Shown piece after piece: positions 6,985 through 23,446 of a stretch of 64,000 nt of DNA. The DNA comes from a plasmid: the sequence record NZ_CP018188.1. One strand, given 5' to 3'. The position numbers were made by a program, and so were the translations under genes. Numbering within the stretch: position 1 is the first letter of the stretch; each line of letters begins with the position of its first letter. The notes beneath the pieces were generated by a model, which was not told the DNA's origin, did not search any database, and was given only the letters and a program-made list of their open reading frames with translations.

Positions 6985-7662
6985 ATGTCTAGAAGAGAAA
7001 GATTCACCCCATACGAGAAAGAACAAGCTTGTCTCGATTATATTAATGGTAATCGTTCCAGATCTGAGATATGTAATTGTCTCCATATTTCCACAAGGAC
7101 GATTCAAGATTGGGCTGCCATCTATAAAAAATATGGGATTTTAGGATTCACAAAGAAAACAAAAAACCGTTCCTATTCAAAAGAATTTAAAATGGAACTT
7201 GTAGAAAAATGTATTAGTGGTGAGGCTTCATCTATTGATTTAGGTCATCAGTATGATATTTCTTCAGGTCTTTTAAGAAAGTGGATTAGGATGTATAATG
7301 CCAATATAGAACTTAAGGATTACAATCCAAAACGGGAGGTCTATATGGCAAAAGCAAGACGTAAAACCACTATTGATGAACGCAAAGAGATTGTCAACTA
7401 TTGTATTGAACACAATCGCAATTATAAGGAAACGGCGTCACTTTATGATGTTTCTTATAGCCAAGTATACTCGTGGGTAAAGAAGTATGATAGTGGTGGC
7501 GAAAAAGGTTTAATTGACAAAAGGGGGCATCACAAAATAGATGATGAGCTTGATGAATTAGAGCGTTTACGAAGAGAAAATGTGCGCTTAAAACGTCAGT
7601 TAGAAGAAAAGGATATGGCTGTTGAACTCTTAAAAAAAGTGAAAGAATTCGGAAGGATGTGA
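6985..7662 (+). CDS. IS3-family transposase OrfA (HTH domains, leucine zipper)
   Basis: Two HTH-like regions and a C-terminal heptad LERLRRENVRLKRQLEE. It ends at the frameshift window. Confidence 0.8.
   Translation: MSRRERFTPYEKEQACLDYINGNRSRSEICNCLHISTRTIQDWAAIYKKYGILGFTKKTKNRSYSKEFKMELVEKCISGEASSIDLGHQYDISSGLLRKWIRMYNANIELKDYNPKREVYMAKARRKTTIDERKEIVNYCIEHNRNYKETASLYDVSYSQVYSWVKKYDSGGEKGLIDKRGHHKIDDELDELERLRRENVRLKRQLEEKDMAVELLKKVKEFGRM
7632..7641 (+). promoter_or_regulatory. Programmed -1 ribosomal frameshift site (A_AAA_AAG) joining IS3 orfA and orfB
   Basis: The TTAAAAAAAGTG heptamer sits in the orfA/orfB overlap. This is the canonical IS3-family frameshift motif. Confidence 0.6.
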
Positions 7663-8624
7663 GGCTAGGCAAACAGCGCCACGAATCAAAATACTTAGCG
7701 ATCGAAGACTTCAACACCAACAAAGGGTGGAGCATTAGCTGGATGTGTCATCAGCTCGGCATTACGAGGTCTGCATTTTATAAATGGAAACATAGAATAG
7801 TTCCAGAACAAGAACAATTAAACAGCGAAATTGCGGAATTAATTAAAGAATATGACGAACGTTTTTCACACATCTTGGGATACCGAAGAATGACCGATTG
7901 GATCAATCATTTCAATCATACGAATTACTCAAGAAAGAGAATTCACCGAATTATGAAAGTACTCGATATCCACGCTTTTATCCGTAAGAAAAAGAAAAAA
8001 TACAAGACTGTTAAACCTGAAGAAACTGCAGAAAATAAGTTGGCAAGAAACTTCTATACAACTGCTCCGAACAAAAAATGGGTAACAGATGTTACAGAGT
8101 TTAAGATTCCTAACTCTCATAAGAAACTCTATCTTAGTGCCATACTTGATTTATATGACCGCTATCCTATTGCTTTTGTCATAAGTGGTCGAAATGACAA
8201 TCGGCTGGTCTTCAAAACATTTGACAAAGCCATTGAAAAAAATCCCGCAGCGAAGCCTATATTTCACAGCGATAGAGGGTTTCAATATACCAATAAGAAC
8301 TTTCAAAAAAAGCTGAAAGATACTGATATGATTCAATCCATGTCAAGAGTGGGCCATTGTATTGATAACGGACCAATAGAAGGTTTTTGGGGAATTATAA
8401 AATCGGAAATGTATCAGATGTATGAGATTTCAGATGAGGCCTCCCTCCGATATGCCATCAAAGACTATATCCGATTTTACTGTCAAGAGCGTCCACAAAG
8501 TAGGTATGACTGTAAAACGCCTTTGGCAGTAAGAAACGCTGCCTTATCATCAGAACATCCTTTGTCATACCCAATCGCTAAGAATAACAAAATTGAAAAG
8601 TACAAGTCTAAGTGGTCTGCATAA
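7659..8624 (+). CDS. IS3-family transposase OrfB (DDE/rve integrase core)
   Basis: Contains an rve-like catalytic core with D ... D ... E spacing (HSDRGFQYT ... CIDNGPIEGFWG). It lies in the -1 frame relative to orfA. Confidence 0.8.
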   Translation: MRLGKQRHESKYLAIEDFNTNKGWSISWMCHQLGITRSAFYKWKHRIVPEQEQLNSEIAELIKEYDERFSHILGYRRMTDWINHFNHTNYSRKRIHRIMKVLDIHAFIRKKKKKYKTVKPEETAENKLARNFYTTAPNKKWVTDVTEFKIPNSHKKLYLSAILDLYDRYPIAFVISGRNDNRLVFKTFDKAIEKNPAAKPIFHSDRGFQYTNKNFQKKLKDTDMIQSMSRVGHCIDNGPIEGFWGIIKSEMYQMYEISDEASLRYAIKDYIRFYCQERPQSRYDCKTPLAVRNAALSSEHPLSYPIAKNNKIEKYKSKWSA

Positions 8625-8978: not shown

Positions 8979-9077
8979 AATGATGCAGCTTTTAAGTAAG
9001 ATGATTCTTATGGTCTCGCAAAAGGGATACAAGAGTGATAAAATAGCCTCAATTATTTAAAATGGAATGACTGCGTA

Positions 9078-10442
9078 CTATAAGGTAGGTGACTCAATAG
9101 GAAGGATAATTTCTGTTTGAAAATATTCTCCTTGTTCACTTGTGATTATCATACTACCTCCATGTAAATCAACAATTTGGTTAGAAATTTTTAGTCCCAT
9201 ACCACTTCTGCGAACTCCAGAAATATCAAAATTAAATTCCTCAATTTTATTAATATTTTTAAGTCTATCTGTAGAAGTTCCAATTCCATTATCACGTATA
9301 ATAACTGAAAATTTATTACGGGAAATATAGTTAAGGACAATCTGAATATTACAACCAGAAGGGTTATGCAATACAGAATTATAAATGAGATTGTGAATAA
9401 CTCTAGACATCAAAGATTTTTCAATGTACATTTTTTTACCCAACAATTTATTATCAGGAATAAACTCAAAATTAAAATCATTCCAAATCTCTTGATTAAT
9501 AATTTGTATGATTATTTCCTTAAAGAAGGGTATAATGTCTGTTATTTCTTGATTTAATTTTAAATTACCGTTTGTTAGTCTAGCGAATATGTTGAGATCG
9601 TTTAGCAAATTTTGAATATAGTGACTCTCAATCAGCGTAGGTTTCAAATTTTTTAATAGGTCATCATTGTCTGTTTTTTCAATAGCTAATGATGCATTAG
9701 CCACGATAACTGAGAGTGGGGTTTTGATGTCATGAGCTATTCCAGAAATCCAATTCTCTTTGAATTCTTCATTTTTACGTAGTTTTTTGTTAGCAGAGTT
9801 AACCGCTAAAGTTAATCTATCTAATTCTTGAACAGAATTTACCTGTTTGTTTAAACCGACAGGTAATTTACCTATTGCGTTAATAATTGGCTGGATGTTG
9901 CGATTTAAGAAAGTAACACTATAAAGGTATAGGAATAGGCAAAATAGGCAGTTAACAAATATGATAACTAAAATTAAAATCGGAAAAATTTGAATTCTCT
10001 TTAGATCAAAGAAATTATTTCCGTATCTAATGATACTTTCTTTTGGAAATGCAATTATATAAATATCTTTTTGTTCTTTTTTTATTTGAGTGAATATTGG
10101 ATAGTCATCTAAATAATAACGTGAAAACTTAATGACATCGGCATAATCAAATTGTGTTTTTATATTTTTAGGTTTTTTGATATTAAACTTTTCATTTCCA
10201 CTTTTTTGATCAAGAATCATGACCCATAAGTTGTGCTTTTTAATCAGTTTTTTTGCAGTTTGATTAACTTTATATGTTCCATTTGATGGGGTGATGTTCG
10301 AAGATACACCTTGTATGATATCTATAGGAGATTGTTGGCTACGGATAAAGTTGGTTGTAGCTACTAATAGAACAAAATCGATAAATATTATGGTAAGAAA
10401 GGCGAGAATAAATTTTAATATACCTTTTTTGAAAATATTCAT
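9078..10442 (-). CDS. lanK: Lantibiotic-locus sensor histidine kinase (LanK; NisK/ScnK-like)
   Basis: Two TM helices flank an extracellular domain. H-box HDIKTPLS and HATPase_c (GMGL) are present. It lies directly downstream of the response regulator and adjacent to the lantibiotic genes. Confidence 0.85.
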   Translation of the reverse strand: MNIFKKGILKFILAFLTIIFIDFVLLVATTNFIRSQQSPIDIIQGVSSNITPSNGTYKVNQTAKKLIKKHNLWVMILDQKSGNEKFNIKKPKNIKTQFDYADVIKFSRYYLDDYPIFTQIKKEQKDIYIIAFPKESIIRYGNNFFDLKRIQIFPILILVIIFVNCLFCLFLYLYSVTFLNRNIQPIINAIGKLPVGLNKQVNSVQELDRLTLAVNSANKKLRKNEEFKENWISGIAHDIKTPLSVIVANASLAIEKTDNDDLLKNLKPTLIESHYIQNLLNDLNIFARLTNGNLKLNQEITDIIPFFKEIIIQIINQEIWNDFNFEFIPDNKLLGKKMYIEKSLMSRVIHNLIYNSVLHNPSGCNIQIVLNYISRNKFSVIIRDNGIGTSTDRLKNINKIEEFNFDISGVRRSGMGLKISNQIVDLHGGSMIITSEQGEYFQTEIILPIESPTL

Positions 10443-10458
10443 AGAGGACTCCGTAAAT

Positions 10459-11157
10459 TCAGATAACTAACTTATAACCCAGCCCTTTGACTGTAATGAG
10501 GTGACGTGGTTTTGATGGGGATAATTCTATCTTCTCTCTTATATTACGAATATGTACCATTAAGGATTTTTCATATCCGAAACTATCTATTCCCCAAATA
10601 GTATCGCAGATTGCTTCTGTTGACACAATATAGTTTTTATTGGTATATAGTTTTCTTAGAATCTGTATTTCAGTTGGAGTTAGCGATAAATGCTGTTCCT
10701 CTTTTTTTACACTAGCATTATTTAAATCAATGATACAAGAAGTTAAAGTTATTAATTCTGATTCTCCTTTATATGCTCTCCTCAGTAAAGCAATTATACG
10801 ATAGATTAAAGTTTTTGGAAGAAATGGTTTTGTGACAAAGTCATCACCACCTGAATCTAATCCTTTAACTTCATCATCTGGATTATTTTTGGCTGTTAAA
10901 AATAAAATTGGTATATCAGAAGTTTTTCTGATGTACTGAGCAAGTAGATAACCTTCTCCATCCGGCAACATTACATCTAGGATAATGAGATCTATTTTAG
11001 AAATAGAAAAAATATCTATTCCTTCGCTAATACTGTAAGCATTACTAATATTTTTAAATCCCCTGCTCACCAAAACTTCTTTAATAGATTTACTAAGTGA
11101 AACATCATCGTCTACTATTAATATCCGTTTGTTTAATAGCTGCGCTTCGAAATTCAT
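10459..11157 (-). CDS. lanR: OmpR-family response regulator (LanR; ScnR/NisR-like)
   Basis: Receiver domain (ILIVDDD ... ILDVMLPDG) plus winged-helix C-terminus. GGGAGG RBS before ATG 11157; an upstream in-frame TTG/ATG is unlikely. Confidence 0.85.
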   Translation of the reverse strand: MNFEAQLLNKRILIVDDDVSLSKSIKEVLVSRGFKNISNAYSISEGIDIFSISKIDLIILDVMLPDGEGYLLAQYIRKTSDIPILFLTAKNNPDDEVKGLDSGGDDFVTKPFLPKTLIYRIIALLRRAYKGESELITLTSCIIDLNNASVKKEEQHLSLTPTEIQILRKLYTNKNYIVSTEAICDTIWGIDSFGYEKSLMVHIRNIREKIELSPSKPRHLITVKGLGYKLVI

Positions 11158-11414
11158 ATACGCGCCTCCCATAAAATTTATTTTAATTATACCATAAACC
11201 ATCTTACTTTAATAAACTGTAGGCAGATAGGAAATTTAAATTCTTAAAAATAATTTTAAGATTTCTTTACTCTGTCTTAACCTAGTCTTCGTAAAATTTA
11301 CTTGTAACAAAGATACTTAGTCTCAAAATAATAACGGATTATCAATAGCTTTGAATAGTCATGTGCTAGAGGTAACTTAGCAGATTATTCTTAAATCTTA
11401 GAAAGAGGAAAAAT

Positions 11415-11564
11415 ATGAAAAAAGATGTAGTTATCGAATCAATTAAAGAAGTAAGTCTTGAAGAGCTTGATCAAATTATTGGAGCTGGGAACGGTGTGTT
11501 TAAAACTATCTCACATGAGTGTCATCTTAATACCTGGGCATTTCTTGCTACATGTTGCTCATAA
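11415..11564 (+). CDS. slnA: Lantibiotic precursor, lacticin-481 group (SA-FF22 / salivaricin G32-like); copy 1
   Basis: 49 aa: [24 protein letters not shown] | [25 protein letters not shown]. It has a GA-type double-glycine leader. The core matches streptococcin A-FF22 ([26 protein letters not shown]) minus Lys2, which is what I recall for salivaricin G32. An RBS is present. Confidence 0.85.
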   Translation: [49 protein letters not shown]

Positions 11565-11592
11565 TAATTATTAATTTAGAGAGAGGAAAATT

Positions 11593-11742
11593 ATGAAAAA
11601 AGATGCAATTATCGAATCAATTAAAGAAGTAAGTCTTGAAGAACTTGACCAAATTATTGGAGCTGGGAACGGTGTGTTTAAAACCATTTCACATGAGTGT
11701 CACTTGAATACTTGGGCATTTCTTGCTACATGTTGCTCATAA
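11593..11742 (+). CDS. slnA: Lantibiotic precursor, copy 2 (identical mature peptide; leader differs at V5A and V6I)
   Basis: [49 protein letters not shown]. This is a tandem duplicate with its own RBS. Confidence 0.85.
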   Translation: [49 protein letters not shown]

Positions 11743-11778
11743 TTTTTGATGACTAAGTATCTACATTGTTATATAAAG

Positions 11779-11800
11779 AAGAGGGAAACCTCTTTTTTTT
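11779..11800 (+). terminator. Weak intrinsic terminator/attenuator between structural genes and the downstream third lanA and lanM
   Basis: AAGAGG-GAAA-CCTCTT hairpin followed by T8. This is the typical partial terminator of lantibiotic operons. Confidence 0.5.
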
Positions 11801-11988
11801 ATATGATGAATTTTGTTTATTTATTCATTCATGTAGTTCATATAATTTATGACTATATATTAAATTAGAAATTTATCTTGACTTTACTTTGCCTTAAACT
11901 TGTCTTTATGTTGCAATTTTAGAATCAATTTATAAAGAAAAATAATTTCGAGCCAGACTCGACATGAAATTTAATGAGGTTATAGACT

Positions 11989-12147
11989 ATGAAAAATAAT
12001 AAAATTCATCTAGAAGCTTTGGAAGCGTTACAAGAACTAAAAATGGAAGAAATAGATAATCTTTTGGGCGGAGCTGGTCATGGAGTAAATACTATTTCTG
12101 CTGAATGTCGTTGGAATAGCTTACAAGCTATCTTTACCTGTTGTTAA
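11989..12147 (+). CDS. Third, divergent lacticin-481-group precursor peptide (A1/A'-type)
   Basis: 52 aa: MKNNKIHLEALEALQELKMEEIDNLLGGAG | HGVNTISAECRWNSLQAIFTCC. It has a GG/GA leader and the conserved TIS-EC ... TCC ring-forming residues. GAGG RBS. It lies immediately upstream of lanM. Confidence 0.7.
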   Translation: MKNNKIHLEALEALQELKMEEIDNLLGGAGHGVNTISAECRWNSLQAIFTCC

Positions 12148-12166
12148 TTTTTAGAAAGGTAAGACA

Positions 12167-14947
12167 ATGAATCATCAAGAACAATTATATAGTCAGTTTA
12201 ATAAATTTCCTAAAGTTTTTATTGAAAAGAAAATACCTGAAGTTCTTAATGAGGATGTTAAGGTACTAAAACAGGTTGAGAAAAATATATCAGACTATTA
12301 TCGATCTACATTAATTTATTTGATTAACGAAAAACGTATTGAAGGGAAGTTAATTGGCGATACAGCTGAGCTACGATATGATTATTTTAATAATGTATTA
12401 TGTAAAAATGGTGATATTTTAGAAGAAATAGAGGAAAGATTTCCGACTATTAGTCAACGTGTCATCATCAGTATAGAGCAGTACCTTGATTTGCTTAAAT
12501 GCGTAAAAAAACATTTTTCAATAGACTTTTCAATATTGAAAAAAATAAAATTTATTTGCTCAGATGATGAATATCCTAATTTAAACAATCTTGATATTAA
12601 AGTAACAGGTGATATTCATAATGGAAGTGGAGTTTGTATTTTATCTTATGAGGGACAAAAATTAGTTTATAAGAAAAAATCGTCAAAACCAAATCATCTT
12701 TTAAAAAAATTGGATAATCAAGTTAGCAAGTATTTAAAAAAAGAGATTCAGTTTGTACCTGACTTTTTAGATAGGGAAGGTTACTTTTGGGAAACTTTTA
12801 TAGACAGTAAACCAGTTTGTTCGATTGATGAAGCGAAAGAGTTTTATAAAAGAATGGGTTATCTTGTAGCATATGCTTACATTTTAAATATTTCTGACTT
12901 GCATTTCGAAAATCTTATTTCACATAATGTTCAGCCTATCCTAGTAGATGCTGAGACAGTATTTTCTGTAAGTCCGTATGAAACAGTAGCGGATAATAAT
13001 GCTACTTTAGAGATAATTCGGGATAGCAGAAATTCAGTACTATCTACAGGATTGTTACCTGTGTCTGAAGCCGATAAAATTTTTGGAGGAGATACTAGTG
13101 GAGTTTTAGGGGGCACTCTTATTGGTGAAGCAAGAGTGCTGATAAACCAGAATAGAGATGATATACATGTTGAAAAACAAAAATATAAAACAGAAAATCA
13201 AGCTCACTTACCTTATCGAGTAGGACAAACGGGATTAAGGAATTATTTAAATGCAGAAGATTACATTGATTCCATAAAAATGGGCTACCTAGAGTTAGGT
13301 CATTTTATTATTGATAATAAAGAATTTCTAAAACAACTTTATTTAAGTTTTAGTGATTTAAAAACAAGAGTTTTATTTAGAAATACTAGAGATTACAGTT
13401 TAGTCCGTCAATTGTTGACTTCACCAATTTATTGTAATCAGTCAAATGTTTTATTTGAAAAGATGTCTGATAAATTATCAAATTTTGAAAGTTTGAATTT
13501 ATGTGAATCTGAAGAAAAACAATTACTTAATATGAATATTCCATATTTTTATTCTCGTATTAGTGATGTCGACATTAAAGATAATGAGACTATAGTATGG
13601 AAATTAAAAGAATCTGCTTTAACCGAGGCATTAAAAAAATTGGAAAGATTTGACTTGAGCATAATGAAGGAACAAGTCGATTTAATTGAATTTTCTATTA
13701 AAACACCAAATGCTTTGTATAGTACCGAGCTTCAAGAGTCGTACAAAAAATTTAATAATTTAAATTCAGATAAAGAGGTTTTGTTTGCTGGTATCAATAC
13801 GCTAGTTGATACCATTTTGAATAATGAGAAATGCTCTAAATTAGATGGAAGTACAAATTGGTTAACGCTTAAAGTTACAGATTATGATGCATTTAAACTT
13901 GAACCTATGGATCTATCTATTTATGAGGGAATTTCTGGATTATCAATTGCATTATGTGAAGTCTACGATTTAGTGAATAGTGAAAGACAGGAGAAAATTT
14001 ATAATTGTATACATAGAATTTTTCTAACTCTCTCAAACTCTTACGATAGTGTGCAAAATCAATCGTACTACGTTGGAAAATTAGGTATTCTTTCTGCATT
14101 GAAAAGAATACAGTTGATTACGGGACAAAAAATCTCAAAGTCAATTTTAGATAGAAATAAGGATTACAGTTTAGATTTGAATGTTTCGAGTGCAGATTTT
14201 CTTTCAAGTTTTCCTAATGAGATTGTTGCTCTGTATAGAAGTGATTTGTCAATTAAAAATCTTCGACAAGCCTTAGATAAATTAATTGATTTAAAGGTTA
14301 ATTATGAGAATTATATTGCTTGGGATAATTTGGAATCAAATAATGTTAGTTTAGCACATGGAAATCTAGGAATAGAATTGGCATTACACTATATTGCTGG
14401 AATTTTGGATAATTCTAAAGCCCTAGAGATGTTATTTCAAGCGAATAACTTTGATAATCGCCAAAAAATATCTCAAGGTTGGATAGATAAAAGAAATAAT
14501 TCAACCAGTGCTAATTGGTGTCATGGCTCAACAGGAGTTCTTGTTGCAAGATTAGCTCAACTAGAATTGGATAAAAAATTTCAGCTAATTCCTAGTGCTA
14601 GAAGAAAAGAGTTAGAAGCTGATATTAGACATGCAGTATCTCAAATAATTGAAGTTGGATTCAATATGACCAATTTTTCTATTTGTCATGGAACTAGTGG
14701 AAATTTGTTAGCACTTAACTATTATCGTTCATATCTTAAAGGACACGAAGCACAAGAGTTGGAAAAAATTTTGGAAATTGAGTATAGGAAGTTGCATTCA
14801 TTTGGTTTAGAAAATGGGTGGATGTGCAGTTTTAATACTAAATATAATGTTTATGGGATTATGAATGGTTTGTCAGGGATATTATATTCTACAGCCAAGT
14901 ATCTAAAAAGAGATAATTCTCTAGACCTTCTAATCCCTACTCTATAA
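12167..14947 (+). CDS. lanM: LanM bifunctional lanthionine synthetase (dehydratase + LanC-like cyclase)
   Basis: 926 aa. The C-terminal LanC-like domain has zinc ligands WCHGSTG and ICHGTSGN. The gene sits after the lanA genes. Confidence 0.9.
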   Translation: MNHQEQLYSQFNKFPKVFIEKKIPEVLNEDVKVLKQVEKNISDYYRSTLIYLINEKRIEGKLIGDTAELRYDYFNNVLCKNGDILEEIEERFPTISQRVIISIEQYLDLLKCVKKHFSIDFSILKKIKFICSDDEYPNLNNLDIKVTGDIHNGSGVCILSYEGQKLVYKKKSSKPNHLLKKLDNQVSKYLKKEIQFVPDFLDREGYFWETFIDSKPVCSIDEAKEFYKRMGYLVAYAYILNISDLHFENLISHNVQPILVDAETVFSVSPYETVADNNATLEIIRDSRNSVLSTGLLPVSEADKIFGGDTSGVLGGTLIGEARVLINQNRDDIHVEKQKYKTENQAHLPYRVGQTGLRNYLNAEDYIDSIKMGYLELGHFIIDNKEFLKQLYLSFSDLKTRVLFRNTRDYSLVRQLLTSPIYCNQSNVLFEKMSDKLSNFESLNLCESEEKQLLNMNIPYFYSRISDVDIKDNETIVWKLKESALTEALKKLERFDLSIMKEQVDLIEFSIKTPNALYSTELQESYKKFNNLNSDKEVLFAGINTLVDTILNNEKCSKLDGSTNWLTLKVTDYDAFKLEPMDLSIYEGISGLSIALCEVYDLVNSERQEKIYNCIHRIFLTLSNSYDSVQNQSYYVGKLGILSALKRIQLITGQKISKSILDRNKDYSLDLNVSSADFLSSFPNEIVALYRSDLSIKNLRQALDKLIDLKVNYENYIAWDNLESNNVSLAHGNLGIELALHYIAGILDNSKALEMLFQANNFDNRQKISQGWIDKRNNSTSANWCHGSTGVLVARLAQLELDKKFQLIPSARRKELEADIRHAVSQIIEVGFNMTNFSICHGTSGNLLALNYYRSYLKGHEAQELEKILEIEYRKLHSFGLENGWMCSFNTKYNVYGIMNGLSGILYSTAKYLKRDNSLDLLIPTL

Positions 14948-14973
14948 TCAGCGATAGGAAGGAAACTTTATAC

Positions 14974-17046
14974 ATGAAGATTGTTTTGCAAAATAACGAG
15001 GAGGATTGCTTATTAGCATGTTATACAATGCTATTAAATGATCTGGGGCACAAAGTCCCTTTATATGAGGTATATAATAAAGATACCCTACCAGCGGATG
15101 GTCTGAATGTATCGTACTTACTATCTCTTAACGAGAGGTTTGGAGTAACCTTGAATGCATACCATGCTACATATGAGGATATATGTAAAATCTATAAGGA
15201 ACAGAAACAAAGGATGATTCTCCACTGGAATAATGATCATTTTGTTGTTCTAGAAAAGATTACTGCAACCCAAGTTATGATAGTAGATCCAGCAATTGGT
15301 CGAGTAAAATATAGTTATGAAGAATTTATAAAACACTACTCTAAAACAATAGTGTTGATAAGTAAAAGTAAGAATTTTCAAAAGCAAAAATATAACCAAA
15401 TTTTTTGGAAATATTTTATACAAACTTTGAAAACAAAAACAATTATTTTATTTTTAGTTTCATTAGTGTTAATCCAGATCAGCGTTTTAATATTTTCGGT
15501 AGTATTAAGATACATGTTAGCGGAAAAATTTAAATTCTGGGCCAGTATCATTCTTCTAGCGGGGGTAGTTTTATTCCAACTATTTGGATATTTTATTAAA
15601 AATAATGCACTGGATGAATATAATTTAGATTTTGATAATAATTATAGCAGAATACTTTTTGAAAAATTATTGAAAAAGCCACTTTTATATTTTAGAAATC
15701 ATTTAAGCGGTGGAATTTCAGAAAAGATTAATTTCAAATCTACCTTAAGGGATAATGTTACTTTAAAAATTATTCCGTCATGTGTTAGTTTTATTTCAGC
15801 AATTGTTATTTTTATATATCTGATGACTATTTCAGTCAAATTAACAGTGATTCTAGTTACGATGATTTCAGCGTATAGTATTATTTCAATATTTCTTTAT
15901 CGCAAACAAAACGAATATAATCAAACCTATTTGCAGTATCTAATTGATTTTAATTCGGAATTGCAAATGGATTTAGACGATATTGACTATATCAAAATTA
16001 TGAGGCGGGAAGGTTTGACCTTTAGTTCATGGATGGATATTAATAAAAAAGTTACTGAAAAGTATTCACAGATTTTGAAATTTGAAAATCTTACACAGCT
16101 GATTGGTACGATTTTTAATTATATTAGTCTCTCGGTAATCATCATAGTAGCAGTTTACTATGAAAATTATATACATGTTTCCATTTCAGACCTATTAGTT
16201 TATCAGACTAGTATTTCGTTATTAGTATCAGCTATTGAGCAAGTTAAGGGGGCTGCTTTTGAAGCTATAAGGTTAGGTGTCTATGCAGAAAAACAAAGTG
16301 ATTTATTAAAAGACAGTAAACCAATTTTAGTACAAAGCTCGAGTTCAGACGAGTATTTGATAAAAGCTGAAAAGTTGAATTTTTCTTATGGCATGAAGCC
16401 GATTTATAATGATATTGATTTAACAATTGGTAAAGGAGAAAAAGTTGCTATCGTAGGGAAATCAGGTAGTGGGAAATCAACGTTATTACTGTTATTAGCA
16501 GGTATGTTACGTTATAATGGCTCATTAAAATATGGTATCGAAAATTTTGAAGAATGTTTGAGTGTTGTTCTTCAGAATATGACCTTAAGAAAGGGAAGTG
16601 TATTAGAAAATTTGGAGTGGGATTCAGATGATTTAACACCCCTATTTCAAGTATTAAAAGATACCTCGGCAGATGAAGTTATTAACCAATTGCCAAATAA
16701 AGTTCATTCAAAATTATTAAAACAAGGGAAAAATTTATCGGGGGGACAAATTCAGAAACTATTAATAGCTAAATCGTTACTTAAAAATGAAGGTATCATT
16801 TTTTGGGATGAAGCATTCAGTAACCTCGATGAACAAAGTAAAAATAAAATTTACACCAATATTCTAAAAAATAGTAATTATTCAAAAAAGACTATGCTGA
16901 TGGTTAGCCATCATCTAGATATTGTTGAATATGTTGATTACATTATCTATATAGACGATGAGACAGGTAAAGTCTATAAAGATACTCATAGTAATCTAAT
17001 AAAAACCAATGAAAGTTACTTCAACTTCATTAATTCAAAAGTATAG
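14974..17046 (+). CDS. lanT: LanT: C39 peptidase-domain ABC exporter for leader cleavage and export
   Basis: N-terminal C39 motif (CLLACYTMLL with catalytic Cys), 6 TM helices, Walker A GKSGSGKST and signature LSGGQIQK. Confidence 0.9.
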   Translation: MKIVLQNNEEDCLLACYTMLLNDLGHKVPLYEVYNKDTLPADGLNVSYLLSLNERFGVTLNAYHATYEDICKIYKEQKQRMILHWNNDHFVVLEKITATQVMIVDPAIGRVKYSYEEFIKHYSKTIVLISKSKNFQKQKYNQIFWKYFIQTLKTKTIILFLVSLVLIQISVLIFSVVLRYMLAEKFKFWASIILLAGVVLFQLFGYFIKNNALDEYNLDFDNNYSRILFEKLLKKPLLYFRNHLSGGISEKINFKSTLRDNVTLKIIPSCVSFISAIVIFIYLMTISVKLTVILVTMISAYSIISIFLYRKQNEYNQTYLQYLIDFNSELQMDLDDIDYIKIMRREGLTFSSWMDINKKVTEKYSQILKFENLTQLIGTIFNYISLSVIIIVAVYYENYIHVSISDLLVYQTSISLLVSAIEQVKGAAFEAIRLGVYAEKQSDLLKDSKPILVQSSSSDEYLIKAEKLNFSYGMKPIYNDIDLTIGKGEKVAIVGKSGSGKSTLLLLLAGMLRYNGSLKYGIENFEECLSVVLQNMTLRKGSVLENLEWDSDDLTPLFQVLKDTSADEVINQLPNKVHSKLLKQGKNLSGGQIQKLLIAKSLLKNEGIIFWDEAFSNLDEQSKNKIYTNILKNSNYSKKTMLMVSHHLDIVEYVDYIIYIDDETGKVYKDTHSNLIKTNESYFNFINSKV

Positions 17047-17152
17047 AAAATATCTTGATCTATCTTAATGTTATCTTTAAGATGATAAAGTAGAATTACA
17101 TTGTAAAGAAAGGAGTAATCCTGGCTAAAAGGATTACAAGGAAATTAATGAG

Positions 17153-18061
17153 ATGAATAATATTATTGAATTGAAAAATCTTAAAAAGGTCTATAAAGAT
17201 ACTACTACAGTGGATCTTAAGAAACTGACAGTCAGAGAAGGGGAAATCTATGGTTTCTTAGGTCCCAACGGCGCAGGGAAAACAACTACGATGAAAATGA
17301 TCTTATCTTTGGTGGAGCCTACTTTAGGAGAGATTTTAGTCAATGGTCAAAATATCAAAGAGAATAATGATTACCTAAATCAAATTGGATCGATGATTGA
17401 GGAACCATCTTATTATCCAAATTTAACGGGATATGAAAACTTATTAGTATTTCAAAAAATGGTAGGTTTTGATGAGGATAATATTTGGCCAACTTTGAAA
17501 TTAGTTGGATTGGCGGAGGACAAAAATCGTAAGAAATTAGTGAAAGCCTATTCCCTAGGGATGAAGCAACGTTTAGCCTTAGCTTTTGCTTTAGTTAAAA
17601 AGCCCCAAATTTTATTATTAGATGAACCGACTAATGGTCTTGATCCAGCAGGGATTCATGAAATTCGTGAGTTGATTGTTAAATTAGCAAAAGAAGAAGG
17701 CTTAACAGTCTTTATCTCCAGCCACATCTTATCAGAGATAGAACAAATTGCTGATCGGGTTGGTATTATAAATCATGGTTGTTTAGTTTATGAAGGAGAG
17801 ATTCGAGAGATCAAATCAAATACTTGGATTGAGATTGGTGGCGATTTTTCGCAAAATAATATTGTTCAACACTTAGTTGATTTCGGTTCAGTCAGAGTAC
17901 GGGAAGCATCGGCGAGTGAGGTTAAATTAGACGATATGAGTAACGATCGTCTTGCGGATATTATCACCTATATAACCGACCTTGGCTTTAGAATTTTTCG
18001 TGTCACTAGAGAAAGTGAGACATTAGAAGATATTTTTCTGGAACTAACAAAGGAGGTATAA
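17153..18061 (+). CDS. lanF: LanF immunity ABC ATP-binding protein
   Basis: Walker A GPNGAGKTT, signature LSLGMKQRLALAFAL and Walker B LLLDEP. Confidence 0.85.
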   Translation: MNNIIELKNLKKVYKDTTTVDLKKLTVREGEIYGFLGPNGAGKTTTMKMILSLVEPTLGEILVNGQNIKENNDYLNQIGSMIEEPSYYPNLTGYENLLVFQKMVGFDEDNIWPTLKLVGLAEDKNRKKLVKAYSLGMKQRLALAFALVKKPQILLLDEPTNGLDPAGIHEIRELIVKLAKEEGLTVFISSHILSEIEQIADRVGIINHGCLVYEGEIREIKSNTWIEIGGDFSQNNIVQHLVDFGSVRVREASASEVKLDDMSNDRLADIITYITDLGFRIFRVTRESETLEDIFLELTKEV

Positions 18062-18062
18062 G

Positions 18063-18806
18063 ATGAGAGGTGTGTACATTGAATGGTTAAAAAGTAGACG
18101 AACAAAATCTTTTTCAATTGTTACTCTTTTGATGATTGTAGCGACATTGTGGAGTATTGCAATGTTTATGTCTGCTTTTTCGCATCCAGAGTTAAAAAAT
18201 GTCGGAACTTTATTTAGTAATCAGAATGTGAACCTTCTCATGCTTCCTATTGCTGTTTCTGTATTTGTGAGTCGAATTGTGAGTAATGAACGAGAAGGAC
18301 AGACCTTTAAATTACAAGCTACAAATGGCTTAGGTTTGATGACGATCTTTAGACATAAATTTTTATTTACAATGGTCTTCTTCTTTGTCATGTCTTTTGC
18401 AGAAATTGTAGCTATCTGTTGCTTTGGAAAACAATCTGGTATCTCAATTCCTATGGACATTGTAGGAGTTCAATTTTTAGGACAATTACTATCTATTTTC
18501 GCTCTAGTTTCTATCTATTTAACGTTAGCAATGGTACTAGAAAAACAAGGCGTATTACTGGCTTTAGGATTGTTAGGAGGTTTTTTAGGAATCGTCTTAA
18601 ATCCAAGAAGTTATGGTTTTGCTAGTTTGCTTAATCCGTTGACCGGAGCAGGCAGTTTAGCACCTTATAAGTATCACTTTCTTGGGGATGGGGCATATAC
18701 CTACCTCTTGGATCAACAGTTACCTTGGAAACTAGTATTCTTTATGATTTATTGTTTGATGTTATACGGTTTAGCTAATGTTATTTTGAGAAAGAGAGGA
18801 AGTTGA
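18063..18806 (+). CDS. lanE: LanE immunity ABC permease
   Basis: Polytopic membrane protein, translationally coupled to lanF. Confidence 0.75.
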   Translation: MRGVYIEWLKSRRTKSFSIVTLLMIVATLWSIAMFMSAFSHPELKNVGTLFSNQNVNLLMLPIAVSVFVSRIVSNEREGQTFKLQATNGLGLMTIFRHKFLFTMVFFFVMSFAEIVAICCFGKQSGISIPMDIVGVQFLGQLLSIFALVSIYLTLAMVLEKQGVLLALGLLGGFLGIVLNPRSYGFASLLNPLTGAGSLAPYKYHFLGDGAYTYLLDQQLPWKLVFFMIYCLMLYGLANVILRKRGS

Positions 18807-18807
18807 A

Positions 18808-19542
18808 ATGAGACCTTATGTTTTTGCTGAGTGGAAAAAGACTCGCAAATTACAATTGTTCATGATTGGAATGGCATTTTTGGTTTTTTCTAGCTTTATC
18901 GGTTTAGGAGTTTATTTTGCTAATAGGGCTGTCTTAATTGATAAGACACAATCCCTTGTTTTATGGGGACAATTAACATTTTATAACAGTACACTTCTCT
19001 ATCCTCCTATGTTAGCCATTATTGTGGGACAGTTACTGATGCCAGAATTTGAGAGAAAAAACATTGAGATGTTAAAAGCTAATCAAGTTTCAATGGATAA
19101 ATTGTACTTTGGAAAACTATTAAGTGGCTTCTTTCTGATTCTTTCCGTCCAACTTTTTTTACTACTTATTTTTGTTGTAGCTGCTAAAGTTGACGGGATT
19201 TCGTTTGACCTCAGTTTAGCAGTTCATATTAAATGGCTTCTGTTGTCAGTGGTGGCCTCTTTTCCGATAATGACGCTTCAATCCTTCGTAACCGCAAAGA
19301 CTCGTAATTTTAGTAAAGTTGTTGGAGTTGCTACAATTGGTAGCATGTTAAACTTTGTGCTGATTTTTATTAACGAGAATCTTACAAAGTTTTTCCCTTA
19401 TTCTCAACCAATGATTGCCCTACGTAGTCGTTCTTTAACAGATATGTCCTTAATAGATTTGACGATTTTTCTAGTTGTTAATAGTCTATATAGTTTACTT
19501 TTCTATAAATTAACAGTGGCAGCTTTGAAGAAAAACGAATAA
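18808..19542 (+). CDS. lanG: LanG immunity ABC permease
   Basis: Polytopic membrane protein, translationally coupled to lanE. Confidence 0.75.
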   Translation: MRPYVFAEWKKTRKLQLFMIGMAFLVFSSFIGLGVYFANRAVLIDKTQSLVLWGQLTFYNSTLLYPPMLAIIVGQLLMPEFERKNIEMLKANQVSMDKLYFGKLLSGFFLILSVQLFLLLIFVVAAKVDGISFDLSLAVHIKWLLLSVVASFPIMTLQSFVTAKTRNFSKVVGVATIGSMLNFVLIFINENLTKFFPYSQPMIALRSRSLTDMSLIDLTIFLVVNSLYSLLFYKLTVAALKKNE

Positions 19543-19846
19543 TGTTTTAAAAATATATCCATTGTTTATGTCAGAATAAGGAAATTTCAATCAAAAATTT
19601 GAGTATCTCTGTATTTTTACAATAAGAGACACCTTGTAATAAACCGAGATACTGTCAATAATTTTGTGTAAACACTCTAGTAGAGTTATGGAGTTTTAAT
19701 CAAATAAGGATGGCCATACGACAATAGTTGTATAGAGTCATTTCACGAAACGATCAAAAAGGAGCTTATTTATGCCGAAACTGATGTTAGTATGATTTTA
19801 TGGACACGTTTTGGTGGAATAGTATCTAACCAAAGGAGATGTCCAA

Positions 19847-20209: not shown

Positions 20210-20485
20210 TTAGCTTATTTTGATAGTTAGATTTTTATTCAGAGCAGGTGCAATTTTGCTCATTGTTTCAATGCTTGTGTTATGTCCACGTTCAATGCGA
20301 GCAATGGTAGACTGTGGGACATGAGATAGGGAAGCTAGCTCCCTTTGGGTGAGACCTGCTGTTTGTCGTGCGTCAGAAACTGCAATAGCACTTTCCAAAA
20401 TAGCTTTTTCAGTTAAAAAGCCTTCTTTAAAATTATTGTCTGCTAGTTCGTTTTCTAAAAAATCATCAAATTTAATTGTGGTCAT
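20210..20485 (-). CDS. XRE-family HTH antitoxin (HigA-like)
   Basis: GAGGA RBS before ATG 20485 (MTTIKFDDF ...). The HTH region is GLTQRELASLSHVPQSTIARIERG. It lies directly downstream of a RelE/HigB-like toxin frame. Confidence 0.7.
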   Translation of the reverse strand: MTTIKFDDFLENELADNNFKEGFLTEKAILESAIAVSDARQTAGLTQRELASLSHVPQSTIARIERGHNTSIETMSKIAPALNKNLTIKIS

Positions 20486-20531
20486 GGTTGTTGTCCTCAA
20501 ATTCTTCTTTAAATCCTTAGCGTGTTTTATC

Positions 20532-20833
20532 TCACTCTGGGGTGTTTTTTGTTTTTTTGGTAAAGCCATGGGTGATGATGTAGCGTTCATTGAGAACATG
20601 AAAATAAAGTGCCCTTTGAATGTTAGAAGCAACCTTTGAGCGGATTTCAAAGATGTCGTCATCTAGCTTTTTCACCCATTCCATACGTTGAGCAACTAAA
20701 AGACCATGCTCTTGTATAGTGGCGATAGTTGCCAGTAATTTTTATTTGTCTTTAATTGGTATAGTTTGTAAAAATTCTAGGAACTCGGTGTGTCCATTTA
20801 ACCGAGTATAAAACTCAAATTTTGGCTTTTTCA
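20532..20833 (-). pseudogene. RelE/ParE(HigB)-family toxin gene with in-frame TAA at codon 31
   Basis: GGAGGTACA RBS before ATG 20833. MKKPKFEFYTRLNGHTEFLEFLQTIPIKDK*KLLATIATIQEHGLLVAQRMEWVKKLDDDIFEIRSKVASNIQRALYFHVLNERYIITHGFTKKTKNTPE. One nonsense codon (20741-20743) interrupts an otherwise full-length family member. Confidence 0.55.
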
Positions 20834-21244: not shown

Positions 21245-22138
21245 ATGACTAACATAATATTTTCACAAGTTCAAAAGAGTTTTCACAAGAAGTTGGTGTT
21301 AGACATTCCTGATTTTCAGGCAGATTCAGGTGAAATCATCTCCATTGTTGGTGGCAATGGTGCTGGCAAGTCAACTTTCATCAAACTTCTGGCAGGGATT
21401 TTCTTGCAGGATAAGGGAGAGGTTCGTGTGCATGGCGTTTCTAATCGTTCTAAGAAAATCAATTCGCTGGTCAAGTTTGTCTTGGAGAGCGGGCAGGGTT
21501 TGTACAGTTATTTAACTGCTATGGAAAATCTCCAGTATTTTATAGGCTTAAATGGGATTGCCTTGTCTCATATCAAAGCAGAAGTGGATGCTTTATGTGA
21601 CCAGCTGGCTTTTACACCCTACAAAGACACGCTGGTTTCGGAACTGTCCCAGGGCAATCGTCAGAAATTGACCTTAATCTTAGCCTTGGTGCAAAAACCG
21701 AAAGTACTCTGTTTGGATGAGCCGACCAATGGGTTAGATTTACTGGCAAAAAAGCAGCTGATGACTCTTTTGCAGGATTATGCTCGTCACCATCAAGCTA
21801 GTGTTTTCATCACCAGTCATGACGCTAGTTTTATCAAGAAGATCAGTAATCGGGTGGTGCTGATTCAGGAGGGACGGATCTATCGTGACGGAACCTTCGA
21901 GGAGATTTTTGGGACTGTCCACCAGCATGAAGTCTATCACTTGCTTCTGGCTAAGAGTGCAGAAAGCGTGCTGAGACAAAGCTTTCTTGAGTTGGACTAC
22001 AAGGTGCTTGAGGATGGGATTTCGATAGAGACCAGAAATCCAGCCTTTTATCGGCGATTACTAGAAGAAACGGAAGTCTTGCAGTTTAGCCGAGAGCCAG
22101 CCTCTTTGGAAGATTTGCTTTATGAGGTGCTCAAATGA
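21245..22138 (+). CDS. ABC transporter ATP-binding protein
   Basis: Walker A GGNGAGKST, signature LSQGNRQKLTLILAL and Walker B LCLDEP. GC content is higher than in surrounding DNA. Confidence 0.85.
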   Translation: MTNIIFSQVQKSFHKKLVLDIPDFQADSGEIISIVGGNGAGKSTFIKLLAGIFLQDKGEVRVHGVSNRSKKINSLVKFVLESGQGLYSYLTAMENLQYFIGLNGIALSHIKAEVDALCDQLAFTPYKDTLVSELSQGNRQKLTLILALVQKPKVLCLDEPTNGLDLLAKKQLMTLLQDYARHHQASVFITSHDASFIKKISNRVVLIQEGRIYRDGTFEEIFGTVHQHEVYHLLLAKSAESVLRQSFLELDYKVLEDGISIETRNPAFYRRLLEETEVLQFSREPASLEDLLYEVLK

Positions 22139-22875: not shown

Positions 22876-23446
22876 TGAAGTGAAGCGATTTTATCTCTTT
22901 CGCAGGAGACGCTGGGTGGATACCCTGTTTGACACCCTCTACCACATTATTTTCATTCTTGGTTTTTATAGCCTTTTGAGGGGAAATCCAGACTTTCAGC
23001 TGTCTTATTTTTATTACTATTTCATCTTGACTCATGTGGTTTCCTTGGGAAATGAGGAGTTGGAGTACGAGATTCGGTCGGGGCAATCTTTTGGCACCCA
23101 GTATGCTCTGCAATCAGTGTATAGAACTTACCTGCAACGAGCAGTGGTTTACTTTGTTTGGTTGTCTTTGATTTTCTGGATTGCCCTACTGTTGATTCGT
23201 CAGGATTTACTACCCCACTTTTCTTTGAAGGTCATCAGTTTCCAGGAACTGCTCGTGGTATTGATTGCTTTCCTGATTTTCCTCGGCTATTACTTTGTCA
23301 TGATTCGACTTACTATCCGCTTTCAACGGATTTCATTCTTGGTAGATTTTCTAAACACCGTGCTCTTATTCTACTCAGGGCTCGTATTTCCAGTGGTGAG
23401 TTTTGGGAATTTGAAGAAATTATTTGATTGGCTTTTAAGAAATTAA
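22868..23446 (+). CDS. Second membrane component of the ABC system
   Basis: ATG 22868 overlaps the upstream stop. The protein has several hydrophobic helices. Confidence 0.6.
   Translation: MYNEVKRFYLFRRRRWVDTLFDTLYHIIFILGFYSLLRGNPDFQLSYFYYYFILTHVVSLGNEELEYEIRSGQSFGTQYALQSVYRTYLQRAVVYFVWLSLIFWIALLLIRQDLLPHFSLKVISFQELLVVLIAFLIFLGYYFVMIRLTIRFQRISFLVDFLNTVLLFYSGLVFPVVSFGNLKKLFDWLLRN

What the first reader, a model, noticed from the sequence alone, without database searches (positions are those of the whole stretch)
11989..12147. Divergent third precursor (HGVNTISAECRWNSLQAIFTCC) directly upstream of lanM
It keeps the ring-forming Thr/Ser/Cys scaffold of the lacticin-481 group, but the core is about 50% different and the leader is unrelated (MKNNKIHLEALEALQELKMEEIDNLLGGAG). 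It sits downstream of the attenuator hairpin. It could be a second active lantibiotic processed by the same LanM/LanT, or an inducer peptide for LanKR. Whether it is made and modified is not visible from sequence.
Basis: inference. Interest (0 to 1): 0.5.

Follow-up and report, generated by a model that had tools for sequence, protein, structure and literature searches.

The report
slnA1, third salivaricin G32 precursor gene
This small gene is the already described slnA1 of the salivaricin G32 antibiotic cluster of Streptococcus salivarius; its function is still untested, but its ring-forming part is unchanged across many streptococcal species and it has its own regulated promoter, which fits the unidentified signal peptide that switches the cluster on.

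Summary
The ORF is real: 11989-12147 (+) encodes a 52-aa lacticin-481-family precursor (Pfam E=4e-24), 19 nt upstream of lanM. It is not new. It is slnA1 of the salivaricin G32 locus, identical to the copy on S. salivarius plasmid pSsal-YU10. It is the orthologue of scnA'/scnA1, mcdA1 and sssA1, whose function the literature calls unknown.

New here:
- **Conservation.** The ring region NTISAECRWNSLQAIF(T/S)CC is invariant in seven lineages. In five lineages compared, dN is 0-0.05 while synonymous sites are near saturation. The partner bacteriocin core (dN up to 0.35), the A1 leader and LanM (62% identity) all diverge.
- **Decay.** The gene degenerates where lanM is lost.
- **Promoter.** A conserved box, CTTAAnnTTnTCTTTA plus 11 nt plus TAnAAT, precedes both slnA1 and the immunity operon slnFEG.

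Published work shows that pure salivaricin G32 does not induce its own production, whereas producer extracts cross-induce between species.

Best reading (about 50%): SlnA1 is the lanthipeptide pheromone sensed by SlnK. The main rival is a second antibiotic. This is a known gene with a sharpened, testable hypothesis.

The parts
9078..10442 (-). slnK, sensor histidine kinase with two predicted transmembrane segments (about residues 8-32 and 150-180) and an extracellular loop of about 115 aa
   Evidence: Pfam HisKA and HATPase_c. Hydropathy and conservation profile. 98% identical to the pSsal-YU10 copy.
10459..11202 (-). slnR, OmpR/PhoB-type response regulator
   Evidence: Pfam Response_reg and Trans_reg_C. 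RefSeq annotates a shorter 232-aa start in pSsal-YU10.
11276..11291 (+). Box upstream of slnA (CTTAACCTAGTCTTCG); the core promoter here is not resolved
   Evidence: Pattern hit. Alignment with the slnA1 upstream region.
11415..11564 (+). slnA, salivaricin G32 precursor
   Evidence: Translation. After loss of 4 H2O the core mass is 2668.0 Da, against the published 2667 Da (PMC3332205).
11593..11742 (+). slnA', duplicate precursor with an identical core and two leader differences
   Evidence: Translation. 168-nt direct repeat at 93% identity.
11763..11806 (+). Intrinsic terminator after slnA' (G+C core 11779-11794, T-run to 11800)
   Evidence: Scan hit. Fold of -24.1 kcal/mol, z = -4.8. One of only two conserved islands in the intergenic alignment.
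11893..11925 (+). Putative SlnR-dependent promoter of slnA1-slnM-slnT: box CTTAAACTTGTCTTTA (11893-11908), 11 nt, then -10 TAGAAT (11920-11925)
   Evidence: Same box, spacing and -10 as upstream of slnF. Conserved upstream of A1 in the window, L003, L005, L009, L012, L014, L016 and L017. SlnR binding is inferred, not shown.
11976..11979 (+). Ribosome-binding site GAGG, 9 nt before the ATG
   Evidence: Sequence. Conserved in the orthologous loci.
11989..12072 (+). slnA1 leader (28 aa, MKNNKIHLEALEALQELKMEEIDNLLGG), double-glycine type
   Evidence: Translation. Leader similarity test. Leader dN is 0.15-0.44 between lineages. The cleavage site is inferred from the register.
12073..12147 (+). slnA1 core (AGHGVNTISAECRWNSLQAIFTCC, 24 aa) plus stop. 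Predicted rings by analogy with lacticin 481 and SA-FF22: T7-C12, S9-C23 and S16-C24, with Dhb22
   Evidence: Ring region invariant in seven lineages; dN 0-0.05 with dS about 1 or saturated in the five lineages compared. Predicted mass after loss of 4 H2O is 2509.8 Da average, 2508.12 Da monoisotopic. The ring topology is an inference.
12167..14947 (+). slnM, class II lanthipeptide synthetase
   Evidence: Pfam DUF4135 and LANC_like. TIGR03897.
14974..17046 (+). slnT, ABC exporter with an N-terminal C39 leader peptidase
   Evidence: Pfam Peptidase_C39, ABC_membrane and ABC_tran.
17064..17096 (+). Promoter of slnFEG: box CTTAATGTTATCTTTA (17064-17079), 11 nt, then -10 TAGAAT (17091-17096)
17153..19542 (+). 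slnFEG, immunity ABC transporter
   Evidence: Pfam ABC_tran and ABC2_membrane_4.

Best explanation
The ORF is slnA1, the known third precursor gene of the salivaricin G32 (sln) lantibiotic locus carried on S. salivarius megaplasmids. It is the orthologue of scnA'/scnA1 (S. pyogenes SA-FF22), mcdA1 (macedocin) and sssA1 (suicin 65). This identification is shown.

Its product is a lacticin-481-type prepeptide. The inferred maturation is as follows:
- SlnM dehydrates and cyclises it into three thioether rings plus one dehydrobutyrine.
- The C39 domain of SlnT cleaves it after Gly-Gly during export.
- The mature peptide is about 2.51 kDa: AGHGVNTISAECRWNSLQAIFTCC minus 4 H2O.

The most likely function (inferred, about 50%) is a dedicated autoinducer rather than the main antibiotic. 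In this model secreted SlnA1 is sensed by the extracellular loop of SlnK. SlnR~P then binds direct repeats of TCTTWA spaced 11 bp apart. It activates three units:
- slnA-slnA' (the antibiotic);
- slnA1-slnM-slnT (signal plus machinery, a positive feedback loop);
- slnFEG (immunity).

The terminator after slnA' keeps antibiotic precursor mRNA abundant. slnA1-M-T is driven by its own box-bearing promoter plus read-through.

Because the ring region is the same in all lineages, the signal would work across species. That would explain the published cross-induction between S. pyogenes, S. salivarius and S. dysgalactiae.

The confidence given (0.5) refers to the autoinducer function. The identity as slnA1 is about 0.97.
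For: **Identity**
- The locus is 99.2% identical over 10.5 kb to pSsal-YU10, where the gene is annotated WP_080702563.1. The A1 protein is 100% identical.
- The exact protein carries the source names 'mcdA1' and UniRef H6VLK5_STRSL and occurs on at least 1000 contigs.
- slnA1, scnA1, mcdA1 and sssA1 are described in PMC3332205, PMC4062538 and PMC4692507.

**The peptide is functional**
- In five lineages the ring region has dN 0-0.05 with dS about 1 to saturated. Window against S. mitis shows 7 synonymous and 0 non-synonymous differences in 19 codons (11 and 0 over the last 23 codons).
- In the same locus pairs the A core reaches dN 0.35, the A1 leader dN 0.15-0.44, and LanM falls to 62% identity.
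- In S. vestibularis, where lanM is lost, A1 has stop codons and loses its last Cys.

**Own regulated promoter**
- The box plus 11 nt plus TAnAAT occurs upstream of A1 in the window and seven other loci, and upstream of F in six loci. It lies 77-96 nt from the start codon.
- In the window the 14-nt core pattern has 3 hits, all in sln promoter regions on the + strand, against 0.32 expected; 0 of 100 shuffles reach 3.
- Outside the terminator and this block the intergenic region does not align between loci.

**Signal role**
- Pure salivaricin G32 does not induce. Extracts of FF22, G32 and S. dysgalactiae 61 cross-induce all three strains. A non-producing FF22 derivative gives no inducer. The inducer first co-purifies with the lantibiotic, then elutes earlier on C18 (PMC3332205).
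- The A1 ring region is identical in S. pyogenes and S. salivarius.
- In S. mutans, ScnRK (also called LcrRS), described there as an apparent orthologue of the S. pyogenes ScnRK system, induces lctFEG in response to the lacticin-481-type peptide nukacin ISK-1 (PMC5501732; PMC11960140).
Against: - No SlnA1 or ScnA' peptide has ever been detected. Reviews say none appears to be produced (PMC8308785), and only G32 was recovered from strain YU10 (PMC4062538).
- MALDI of inducer-active fractions showed only the SA-FF22 mass (PMC3332205).
- Macedocin production was reported to be induced by an alpha-S1-casein-derived medium component (cited in PMC3332205). The kinase may therefore sense something other than A1.
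- The extracellular loop of SlnK is no more conserved than the rest of the protein: about 55% of columns are invariant among four lineages. There is no sign of a receptor as frozen as its proposed ligand.
- Strong purifying selection fits an antibiotic with a fixed target equally well.
- SlnR binding to the box and the transcription start are not demonstrated.
Confidence: 0.5

Rival explanations
1. SlnA1 is a second, independent antimicrobial lantibiotic. It would be made by the same SlnM and SlnT, and either broaden the killing spectrum or act together with salivaricin G32. Induction would be due to some other molecule.
For: - It has the full lacticin-481 scaffold, including the TxSxEC ring A motif. 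From general knowledge of this family, that motif is used for lipid II binding. It passes the family models.
- Strong purifying selection shows function but not which function.
- Loci with several different lanA genes are common.
- The immunity operon shares its promoter box.
Against: - The peptide has never been seen as an inhibitory species in producers.
- The exact core, fused to the mutacin II leader in S. mutans T8, inhibited none of 12 indicator strains. This is a weak negative, because the known-active SA-FF22, macedocin and suicin 65 cores were also inactive in that system (PMC9927145).
- The core has no Lys and a net charge of about 0.
- In the same loci the antibiotic core A diversifies while A1 is frozen.
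- This reading leaves the published non-G32 inducer unexplained.
Confidence: 0.27
2. SlnA1 is both: a weak lantibiotic that also serves as the signal, as nisin does. Salivaricin G32 would then be a duplicated paralogue that specialised in killing and lost signalling.
For: - The evidence is the same as for the two readings above.
- Paralogy of A and A1 is clear: about 44% identity over 43 residues, with related leaders.
- From general knowledge, nisin, subtilin and salivaricin A are both antibiotic and autoinducer.
Against: No activity data exist for either role. Sequence cannot distinguish this from the pure-signal reading.
Confidence: 0.15
3. slnA1 is a silent or decaying paralogue with no function of its own. 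It would be carried along because it lies between the structural genes and slnM.
For: - No product has been detected.
- It lies behind a terminator.
Against: - dN/dS is near zero with near-saturated synonymous sites in five lineages.
- The RBS and promoter block are conserved.
- Obvious decay (stops, loss of Cys) is seen only where lanM is deleted.
- scnA' is reported to be transcribed (PMC3332205).
Confidence: 0.03

Closest known systems
slnA1 of Streptococcus salivarius G32 and YU10 (salivaricin G32 locus; GenBank JN831266; pSsal-YU10 NZ_MN480763.1, WP_080702563.1)
   Same: The 52-aa protein is identical. Gene order is the same: slnK-slnR, then divergently slnA-slnA'-slnA1-slnM-slnT-slnFEG. 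DNA identity is 99.2% over 10.5 kb (PMC3332205; PMC4062538).
   Different: Nothing of substance. This is the same gene in another copy of the locus.
scnA' / scnA1 (S. pyogenes SA-FF22 locus), mcdA1 (S. macedonicus macedocin), sssA1 (S. suis suicin 65), and, from memory, mukA' (S. mutans mutacin K8)
   Same: Same position between the structural gene or genes and lanM. The ring region NTISAECRWNSLQAIF(T/S)CC is identical. None has an assigned function (PMC4692507; PMC8308785).
   Different: The leaders differ, with overall identity 65-84%. So does the 2-5-residue tail before HGVNT (AG, GG, GGG, GK, SGR). The partner antibiotic differs: G32, SA-FF22, suicin 65-like, K8-like.
Lacticin 481 group lantibiotics (lacticin 481, SA-FF22, nukacin ISK-1, mutacin II)
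   Same: Double-glycine leader, the TxSxEC...S/T...TCC scaffold, and processing by LanM and a LanT with a C39 domain.
   Different: - Ala replaces the usual His or Tyr before the Glu-Cys of ring A.
- There is no C-terminal Ser.
- There is no Lys in the N-terminal tail.
- Sequence conservation across species is extreme, unlike the antibiotic members.
Autoinducing lantibiotics sensed by LanK (nisin/NisK, subtilin/SpaK, salivaricin A/SalK)
   Same: A lanthipeptide would be sensed by a two-transmembrane histidine kinase that activates the structural and immunity promoters. ScnK and McdK are listed with the same architecture as NisK (PMC5266694).
   Different: In those systems the antibiotic is its own signal. 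Here the purified antibiotic does not induce (PMC3332205), and a separate paralogue is the candidate signal.
Induction peptides of class II bacteriocin three-component systems (for example PlnA, BlpC, CbnS; from general knowledge)
   Same: A bacteriocin-like peptide with a double-glycine leader would be dedicated to signalling through a neighbouring histidine kinase and response regulator.
   Different: Those peptides are unmodified and are usually sensed by multi-pass HPK10 kinases. They diversify into pherotypes. A1 would be a ring-containing lanthipeptide and is invariant across species.

Membership tests
Lacticin 481 family lanthipeptide precursor (class II, LanM-dependent) | Sequence match to the curated family models above their cut-offs | tested here: met
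   PF04604: 84.6 bits against 21.7. NF040664: 53.4 bits against 46.
Lacticin 481 family lanthipeptide precursor (class II, LanM-dependent) | Double-glycine-type leader with conserved E-L/V...E-E-L/I-D...L/I-G-G/A | tested here: met
   Leader alignment with SlnA: 0 of 2000 shuffles score as well. The motif is conserved in 13 orthologues.
Lacticin 481 family lanthipeptide precursor (class II, LanM-dependent) | Ring-forming scaffold T-x-S/T-x-E-C-x3-S/T-x5-T-C-C | tested here: met
   TISAECRWNSLQAIFTCC. All Thr, Ser and Cys positions are invariant or conservatively changed (T to S) in the orthologues.
Lacticin 481 family lanthipeptide precursor (class II, LanM-dependent) | Encoded next to a LanM synthetase and a C39-domain LanT exporter | tested here: met
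   slnM starts 19 nt downstream and slnT follows.
Lacticin 481 family lanthipeptide precursor (class II, LanM-dependent) | The peptide is actually dehydrated, cyclised, cleaved and exported | not testable with these tools
   No product has been reported. The predicted mass of 2509.8 Da is given for a search.
Lantibiotic (antimicrobial lanthipeptide) | Growth inhibition by the mature peptide | not testable with these tools
   The only published test used the core fused to the mutacin II leader in S. mutans T8. It was negative, but so were the known-active relatives in that system (PMC9927145).
A1 orthologous group (ScnA'/ScnA1, McdA1, SssA1, SlnA1) | Located between the last lanA copy and lanM in a locus with divergent lanK-lanR | tested here: met
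   Same order in L001, L003, L005, L006, L007, L012, L013 and L016.
A1 orthologous group (ScnA'/ScnA1, McdA1, SssA1, SlnA1) | Ring region NTISAECRWNSLQAIF(T/S)CC ending at Cys-Cys | tested here: met
Autoinducer peptide of a LanKR two-component system | A cognate sensor kinase and response regulator are encoded in the locus | tested here: met
   slnK and slnR. The kinase has two transmembrane segments and an extracellular loop.
Autoinducer peptide of a LanKR two-component system | The signal gene sits behind a regulator-dependent promoter (positive feedback) | tested here: inconclusive
   A conserved direct-repeat box plus -10, shared with PslnF, is present. SlnR binding and the transcription start are not shown.
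Autoinducer peptide of a LanKR two-component system | The purified peptide induces transcription through the kinase at low concentration | not testable with these tools
   Only indirect evidence exists: pure G32 does not induce, whereas producer extracts do (PMC3332205).

The most novel reading that the evidence does not exclude
SlnA1 and its orthologues are a dedicated, sequence-invariant lanthipeptide pheromone. It would be shared by at least seven streptococcal lineages (salivarius/gallolyticus, pyogenes, agalactiae, mitis/vulneris, a mutacin-K8-like locus, Streptococcus sp. 10F2 and a further metagenomic lineage), each making a different lacticin-481-type antibiotic. It would be the lantibiotic counterpart of the class II 'induction peptide'. 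Unlike pherotype-diversifying signals, it would be a common language that lets different species switch on each other's antibiotic production and immunity.
Probability: 0.4. Interest if true: 0.6.

Novelty: already known. Interest (0 to 1): 0.33.

Why it matters
The inducer of the SA-FF22, macedocin and salivaricin G32 group has been unidentified since the locus was sequenced. The function of scnA'/A1 has been listed as unknown for just as long.

S. salivarius strains carrying such loci are developed as oral probiotics against S. pyogenes. Knowing the signal would allow production to be switched on deliberately. If the signal is the same in all species, it would also show how commensals and pathogens trigger each other's antibiotic and immunity genes.

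The analysis here does not discover the gene. It supplies three concrete, checkable facts that turn the open question into a simple experiment:
- the ring region is frozen while synonymous sites are saturated;
- the gene decays where lanM is lost;
- the gene has its own promoter with the same box as the immunity operon.

Tried and rejected
- **Kinase loop conservation.** I tested whether the extracellular loop of SlnK is unusually conserved, as a frozen ligand might predict. It is not: about 55% of columns are invariant, similar to or lower than the cytoplasmic part. This gives neither support nor refutation.
- **Kinase homologue searches.** I searched the 5.8-billion-protein set with the SlnK sensor half and with full-length SlnK. 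The aim was to reach distant kinases, including S. mutans LcrS/ScnK, and to ask whether A1 always travels with this kinase type. Only close relatives (at least 66% identity) or near-identical copies came back. The orthology of S. mutans LcrS therefore rests on the literature.
- **Primary papers.** The McLaughlin 1999 and Papadelli 2007 papers are not held. What is said about transcription of scnA' and the operon structure comes second-hand from PMC3332205.
- **RNA families.** An Rfam scan of 11100-12300 found nothing near any gathering score. The small hairpin at 11948-11962 in the predicted 5' UTR folds no better than shuffles, so I dropped it as a regulatory element.
- **Glu-to-Lys variant.** The ring A variant (P0002) at first looked frequent ('26 members'). 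The cluster listing shows 26 is the size of the cluster, and the variant itself is on only 2 contigs.
- **Hydrophobicity.** Comparing hydrophobicity with SA-FF22, to match the inducer's earlier C18 elution, did not discriminate (GRAVY 0.26 against 0.11).
- **slnA core promoter.** It could not be resolved. The conserved TTGTAACAAAGA sits at the -10 offset but is a poor -10. The scan's -35/-10 pair is not kept at constant spacing in S. agalactiae.

Full report
**1. The observation**

It has a GAGG ribosome-binding site 9 nt upstream and ends 19 nt before a 926-aa LanM gene.

It matches Pfam PF04604 (Type-A lantibiotic) over its whole length at E=4e-24. It also passes NCBIfam NF040664, 'lacticin 481 family lantibiotic'.

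Two nearly identical lanA genes precede it, at 11415-11564 and 11593-11742. Their shared core is GNGVFKTISHECHLNTWAFLATCCS. The third core matches it at 12 of 25 aligned positions and keeps every ring-forming Thr, Ser and Cys. No other ORF of 30 aa or more overlaps it on either strand, and no Rfam family matches the region.

One descriptive point is wrong. The leader is not unrelated to the SlnA leader. Both carry E(V/L)xxEE(L/I)Dxx(I/L)G(A/G), and 0 of 2000 shuffles reach their alignment score.

With the usual double-glycine register (-4 L, -7 I, -8 E, -12 L), cleavage is predicted after LLGG. The mature peptide would then begin AGHGV rather than HGV. This is an inference.

**2. What it is**

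The surrounding 10.5 kb (9000-19600) is 99.2% identical to the S. salivarius YU10 megaplasmid pSsal-YU10. There the gene order is kinase, regulator, three 'lacticin 481 family lantibiotic' genes, LanM, C39-ABC exporter and a three-gene ABC immunity system. The third peptide is 100% identical. The rest of the window also resembles S. salivarius megaplasmids.

The core of the first two genes is salivaricin G32. Its mass after loss of four waters computes to 2668.0 Da, against 2667 Da published (PMC3332205).

The paper describing salivaricin G32 sequenced and named this third gene slnA1. It aligned it with scnA1 of S. pyogenes FF22 and mcdA1 of S. macedonicus. A later paper found slnA1 at '100% homology' in strain YU10. 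The suicin 65 locus of S. suis has the same gene, sssA1, 'whose function is not identified yet'.

The exact protein occurs on at least 1000 public contigs under source names such as 'mcdA1'. The gene is therefore already known. [quoted passage not shown] My literature searches up to 2026 found no later assignment.

**3. Evidence on whether the peptide matters**

I collected orthologous loci from these sources:

| Locus | Source |
|---|---|
| L002 | S. gallolyticus |
| L003 | S. agalactiae |
| L005 | S. mitis |
| L006 | S. vulneris |
| L008, L009 | S. vestibularis |
| L012, L013 | S. pyogenes |
| L010 | a mutacin-K8-like metagenomic locus |
| L016 | Streptococcus sp. 10F2 |
| L017 | a further metagenomic lineage |

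The gene order K-R / A(A') / A1 / M / T / FEG is kept.

Across these loci most components diverge:
- LanM falls to 62% identity.
- The antibiotic core changes, for example HLNTWAFLATCCS, HMNSFQFFFTCCS, HMNSWQFLFTCCS and RYNSWAFLATCCS.
- The A1 leader changes freely.

The A1 ring region, by contrast, stays NTISAECRWNSLQAIF(T/S)CC everywhere.

Nei-Gojobori counts for five lineages:

| Region | dN | dS |
|---|---|---|
| A1 ring region | 0-0.05 | about 1 to saturated |
| A ring region | up to 0.35 | similar |
| A1 leader | 0.15-0.44 | similar |

Saturated synonymous sites rule out recent transfer or an overlapping DNA element as the cause. This is strong purifying selection on the mature peptide.

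The S. vestibularis locus serves as a control. Its lanM is deleted, and both A and A1 are pseudogenes there: A1 has stop codons in the leader, R to H, NS to KN, and its final Cys changed to Tyr.

Within the S. salivarius population, the variants seen on more than one contig all lie in the leader N-terminus. The 'silent relic' reading is thus contradicted.

**4. Regulation**

A canonical terminator follows slnA': core 11779-11794 plus a T-run, -24.1 kcal/mol for the extended stem, z = -4.8.

However, the slnA'-slnA1 spacer has only two blocks conserved between loci. One is that terminator. The other is the last 100 bp or so before slnA1. That second block contains CTTAAACTTGTCTTTA (11893-11908), then 11 nt, then TAGAAT (11920-11925).

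The same arrangement stands before the immunity operon: CTTAATGTTATCTTTA (17064-17079), 11 nt, TAGAAT. A related box (11276-11291) stands before slnA.

The box scores 12-13 of 13 specified positions before A1 in the window and seven other loci, and before F in six loci. It lies 77-96 nt from the start codon, always followed by TAnAAT-like hexamers. In the 64-kb window the 14-nt core pattern occurs three times, only at these three places, against 0.32 expected; 0 of 100 shuffles reach three.

The box is a direct repeat of TCTTWA with 11-bp spacing. From general knowledge, that is what an OmpR/PhoB-type regulator such as SlnR would bind. Binding itself is not shown.

So slnA1-slnM-slnT very probably has its own regulated promoter of the same type as the immunity operon, in addition to any read-through.

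**5. Most likely mechanism**

The salivaricin G32 paper reports several facts about induction:
- Purified G32 does not induce production.
- Extracts of S. pyogenes FF22, S. salivarius G32 and S. dysgalactiae 61 each induce all three strains.
- A non-producing FF22 derivative yields no inducer.
- The inducer first co-purifies with the lantibiotic and then elutes earlier on C18.

These facts call for a second, lantibiotic-like, locus-encoded molecule that is the same in different species. SlnA1 fits. Its ring region is identical in S. pyogenes and S. salivarius. It is under selection typical of a ligand with a fixed partner. It sits in a feedback-type operon.

There is also a precedent for the kinase. 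In S. mutans, ScnRK (also called LcrRS) is described as an apparent orthologue of the S. pyogenes ScnRK system. It induces the lctFEG transporter in response to the lacticin-481-type peptide nukacin ISK-1. ScnK and McdK are listed among kinases with NisK-like architecture. SlnK has two predicted transmembrane segments and an extracellular loop of about 115 aa.

I therefore put about 50% on SlnA1 being the pheromone of the system. I give about 27% to an independent second antibiotic, about 15% to a dual role, and about 3% to no function.

**6. Evidence against the pheromone reading**

- The peptide has never been detected.
- Inducer-active fractions showed only the SA-FF22 mass.
- Macedocin was reported to be induced by a casein-derived peptide (cited).
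- The SlnK loop is not especially conserved.
- The one published functional test fused exactly this core (AGHGVNTISAECRWNSLQAIFTCC, from S. equi) to the mutacin II leader in S. mutans T8. It found no inhibition of 12 indicator strains. The known-active SA-FF22, macedocin and suicin cores were equally inactive there, so the result says little.

**7. Comparison and verdict**

This is a full member of the lacticin 481 precursor family by sequence, leader, scaffold and context. It is the same gene as the published slnA1. Modification and activity cannot be tested here.

If the pheromone reading is right, it works like the 'induction peptides' of class II bacteriocin systems, but as a ring-containing lanthipeptide that is invariant across species. 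That differs from nisin-type systems, where the antibiotic is its own signal.

Novelty: already known. Interest is modest. The value of this re-examination is a corrected description and a sharper, directly testable hypothesis for an old, niche open question.

Noticed in passing
L011 2056-2199 (ENA ERZ28596993 scaffold_10877); corresponds to window 11415-11488 joined to 12078-12147: A metagenomic scaffold carries the slnA leader fused in frame to the A1 core (MKKDVVIESIKEVSLEELDQIIGAGHGVNTISAECRWNSLQAIFTCC). The join is at the shared GGAGCTGG. The fusion deletes the G32 core, slnA', the terminator and the slnA1 promoter, so A1 would be the only product and would be driven by the slnA promoter. 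Whether this is a real deletion or an assembly join is not resolved.
   Followed up: partly
L009 5560-6260 (S. vestibularis ATCC 49124) and L008: This is a decayed copy of the locus. K and R are full length, but lanM is reduced to its first 27 codons, slnF is partial, and both A and A1 are pseudogenes. The promoter box before A1 is still intact.
   Followed up: partly
window 17064-17096, and the same position in L003, L005, L012, L016, L017: The immunity operon slnFEG has the same box, 11 nt and TAnAAT promoter architecture as slnA1. This suggests that signal, machinery and immunity are co-regulated separately from the antibiotic genes.
   Followed up: yes
window 11912-11940 versus 11604-11632: The stretch between the box and the RBS of slnA1 is 79% identical over 29 nt to codons 4-13 of slnA'. 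It may be a relic of an older lanA duplication, or chance in AT-rich DNA (family D2).
   Followed up: no
window 6985-8624: An IS3-type transposase pair (HTH_Tnp_1/HTH_28, then an rve integrase core) lies just upstream of slnK. The S. pyogenes locus L012 is also bracketed by transposase genes. This fits the locus moving between species.
   Followed up: no
L014 143-301 and L015 (metagenomes): A rare natural variant changes the conserved ring A Glu to Lys (TISAKC). It sits next to an intact 926-aa LanM and is seen on only 2 contigs.
   Followed up: partly
window 21245-24186: Downstream of the sln locus lies a second ABC ATPase gene (21245-22138). It is followed by three ORFs without Pfam matches, next to an HTH_3 regulator on the other strand (20210-20662). 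This could be another bacteriocin immunity or export unit. It was not examined.
   Followed up: no
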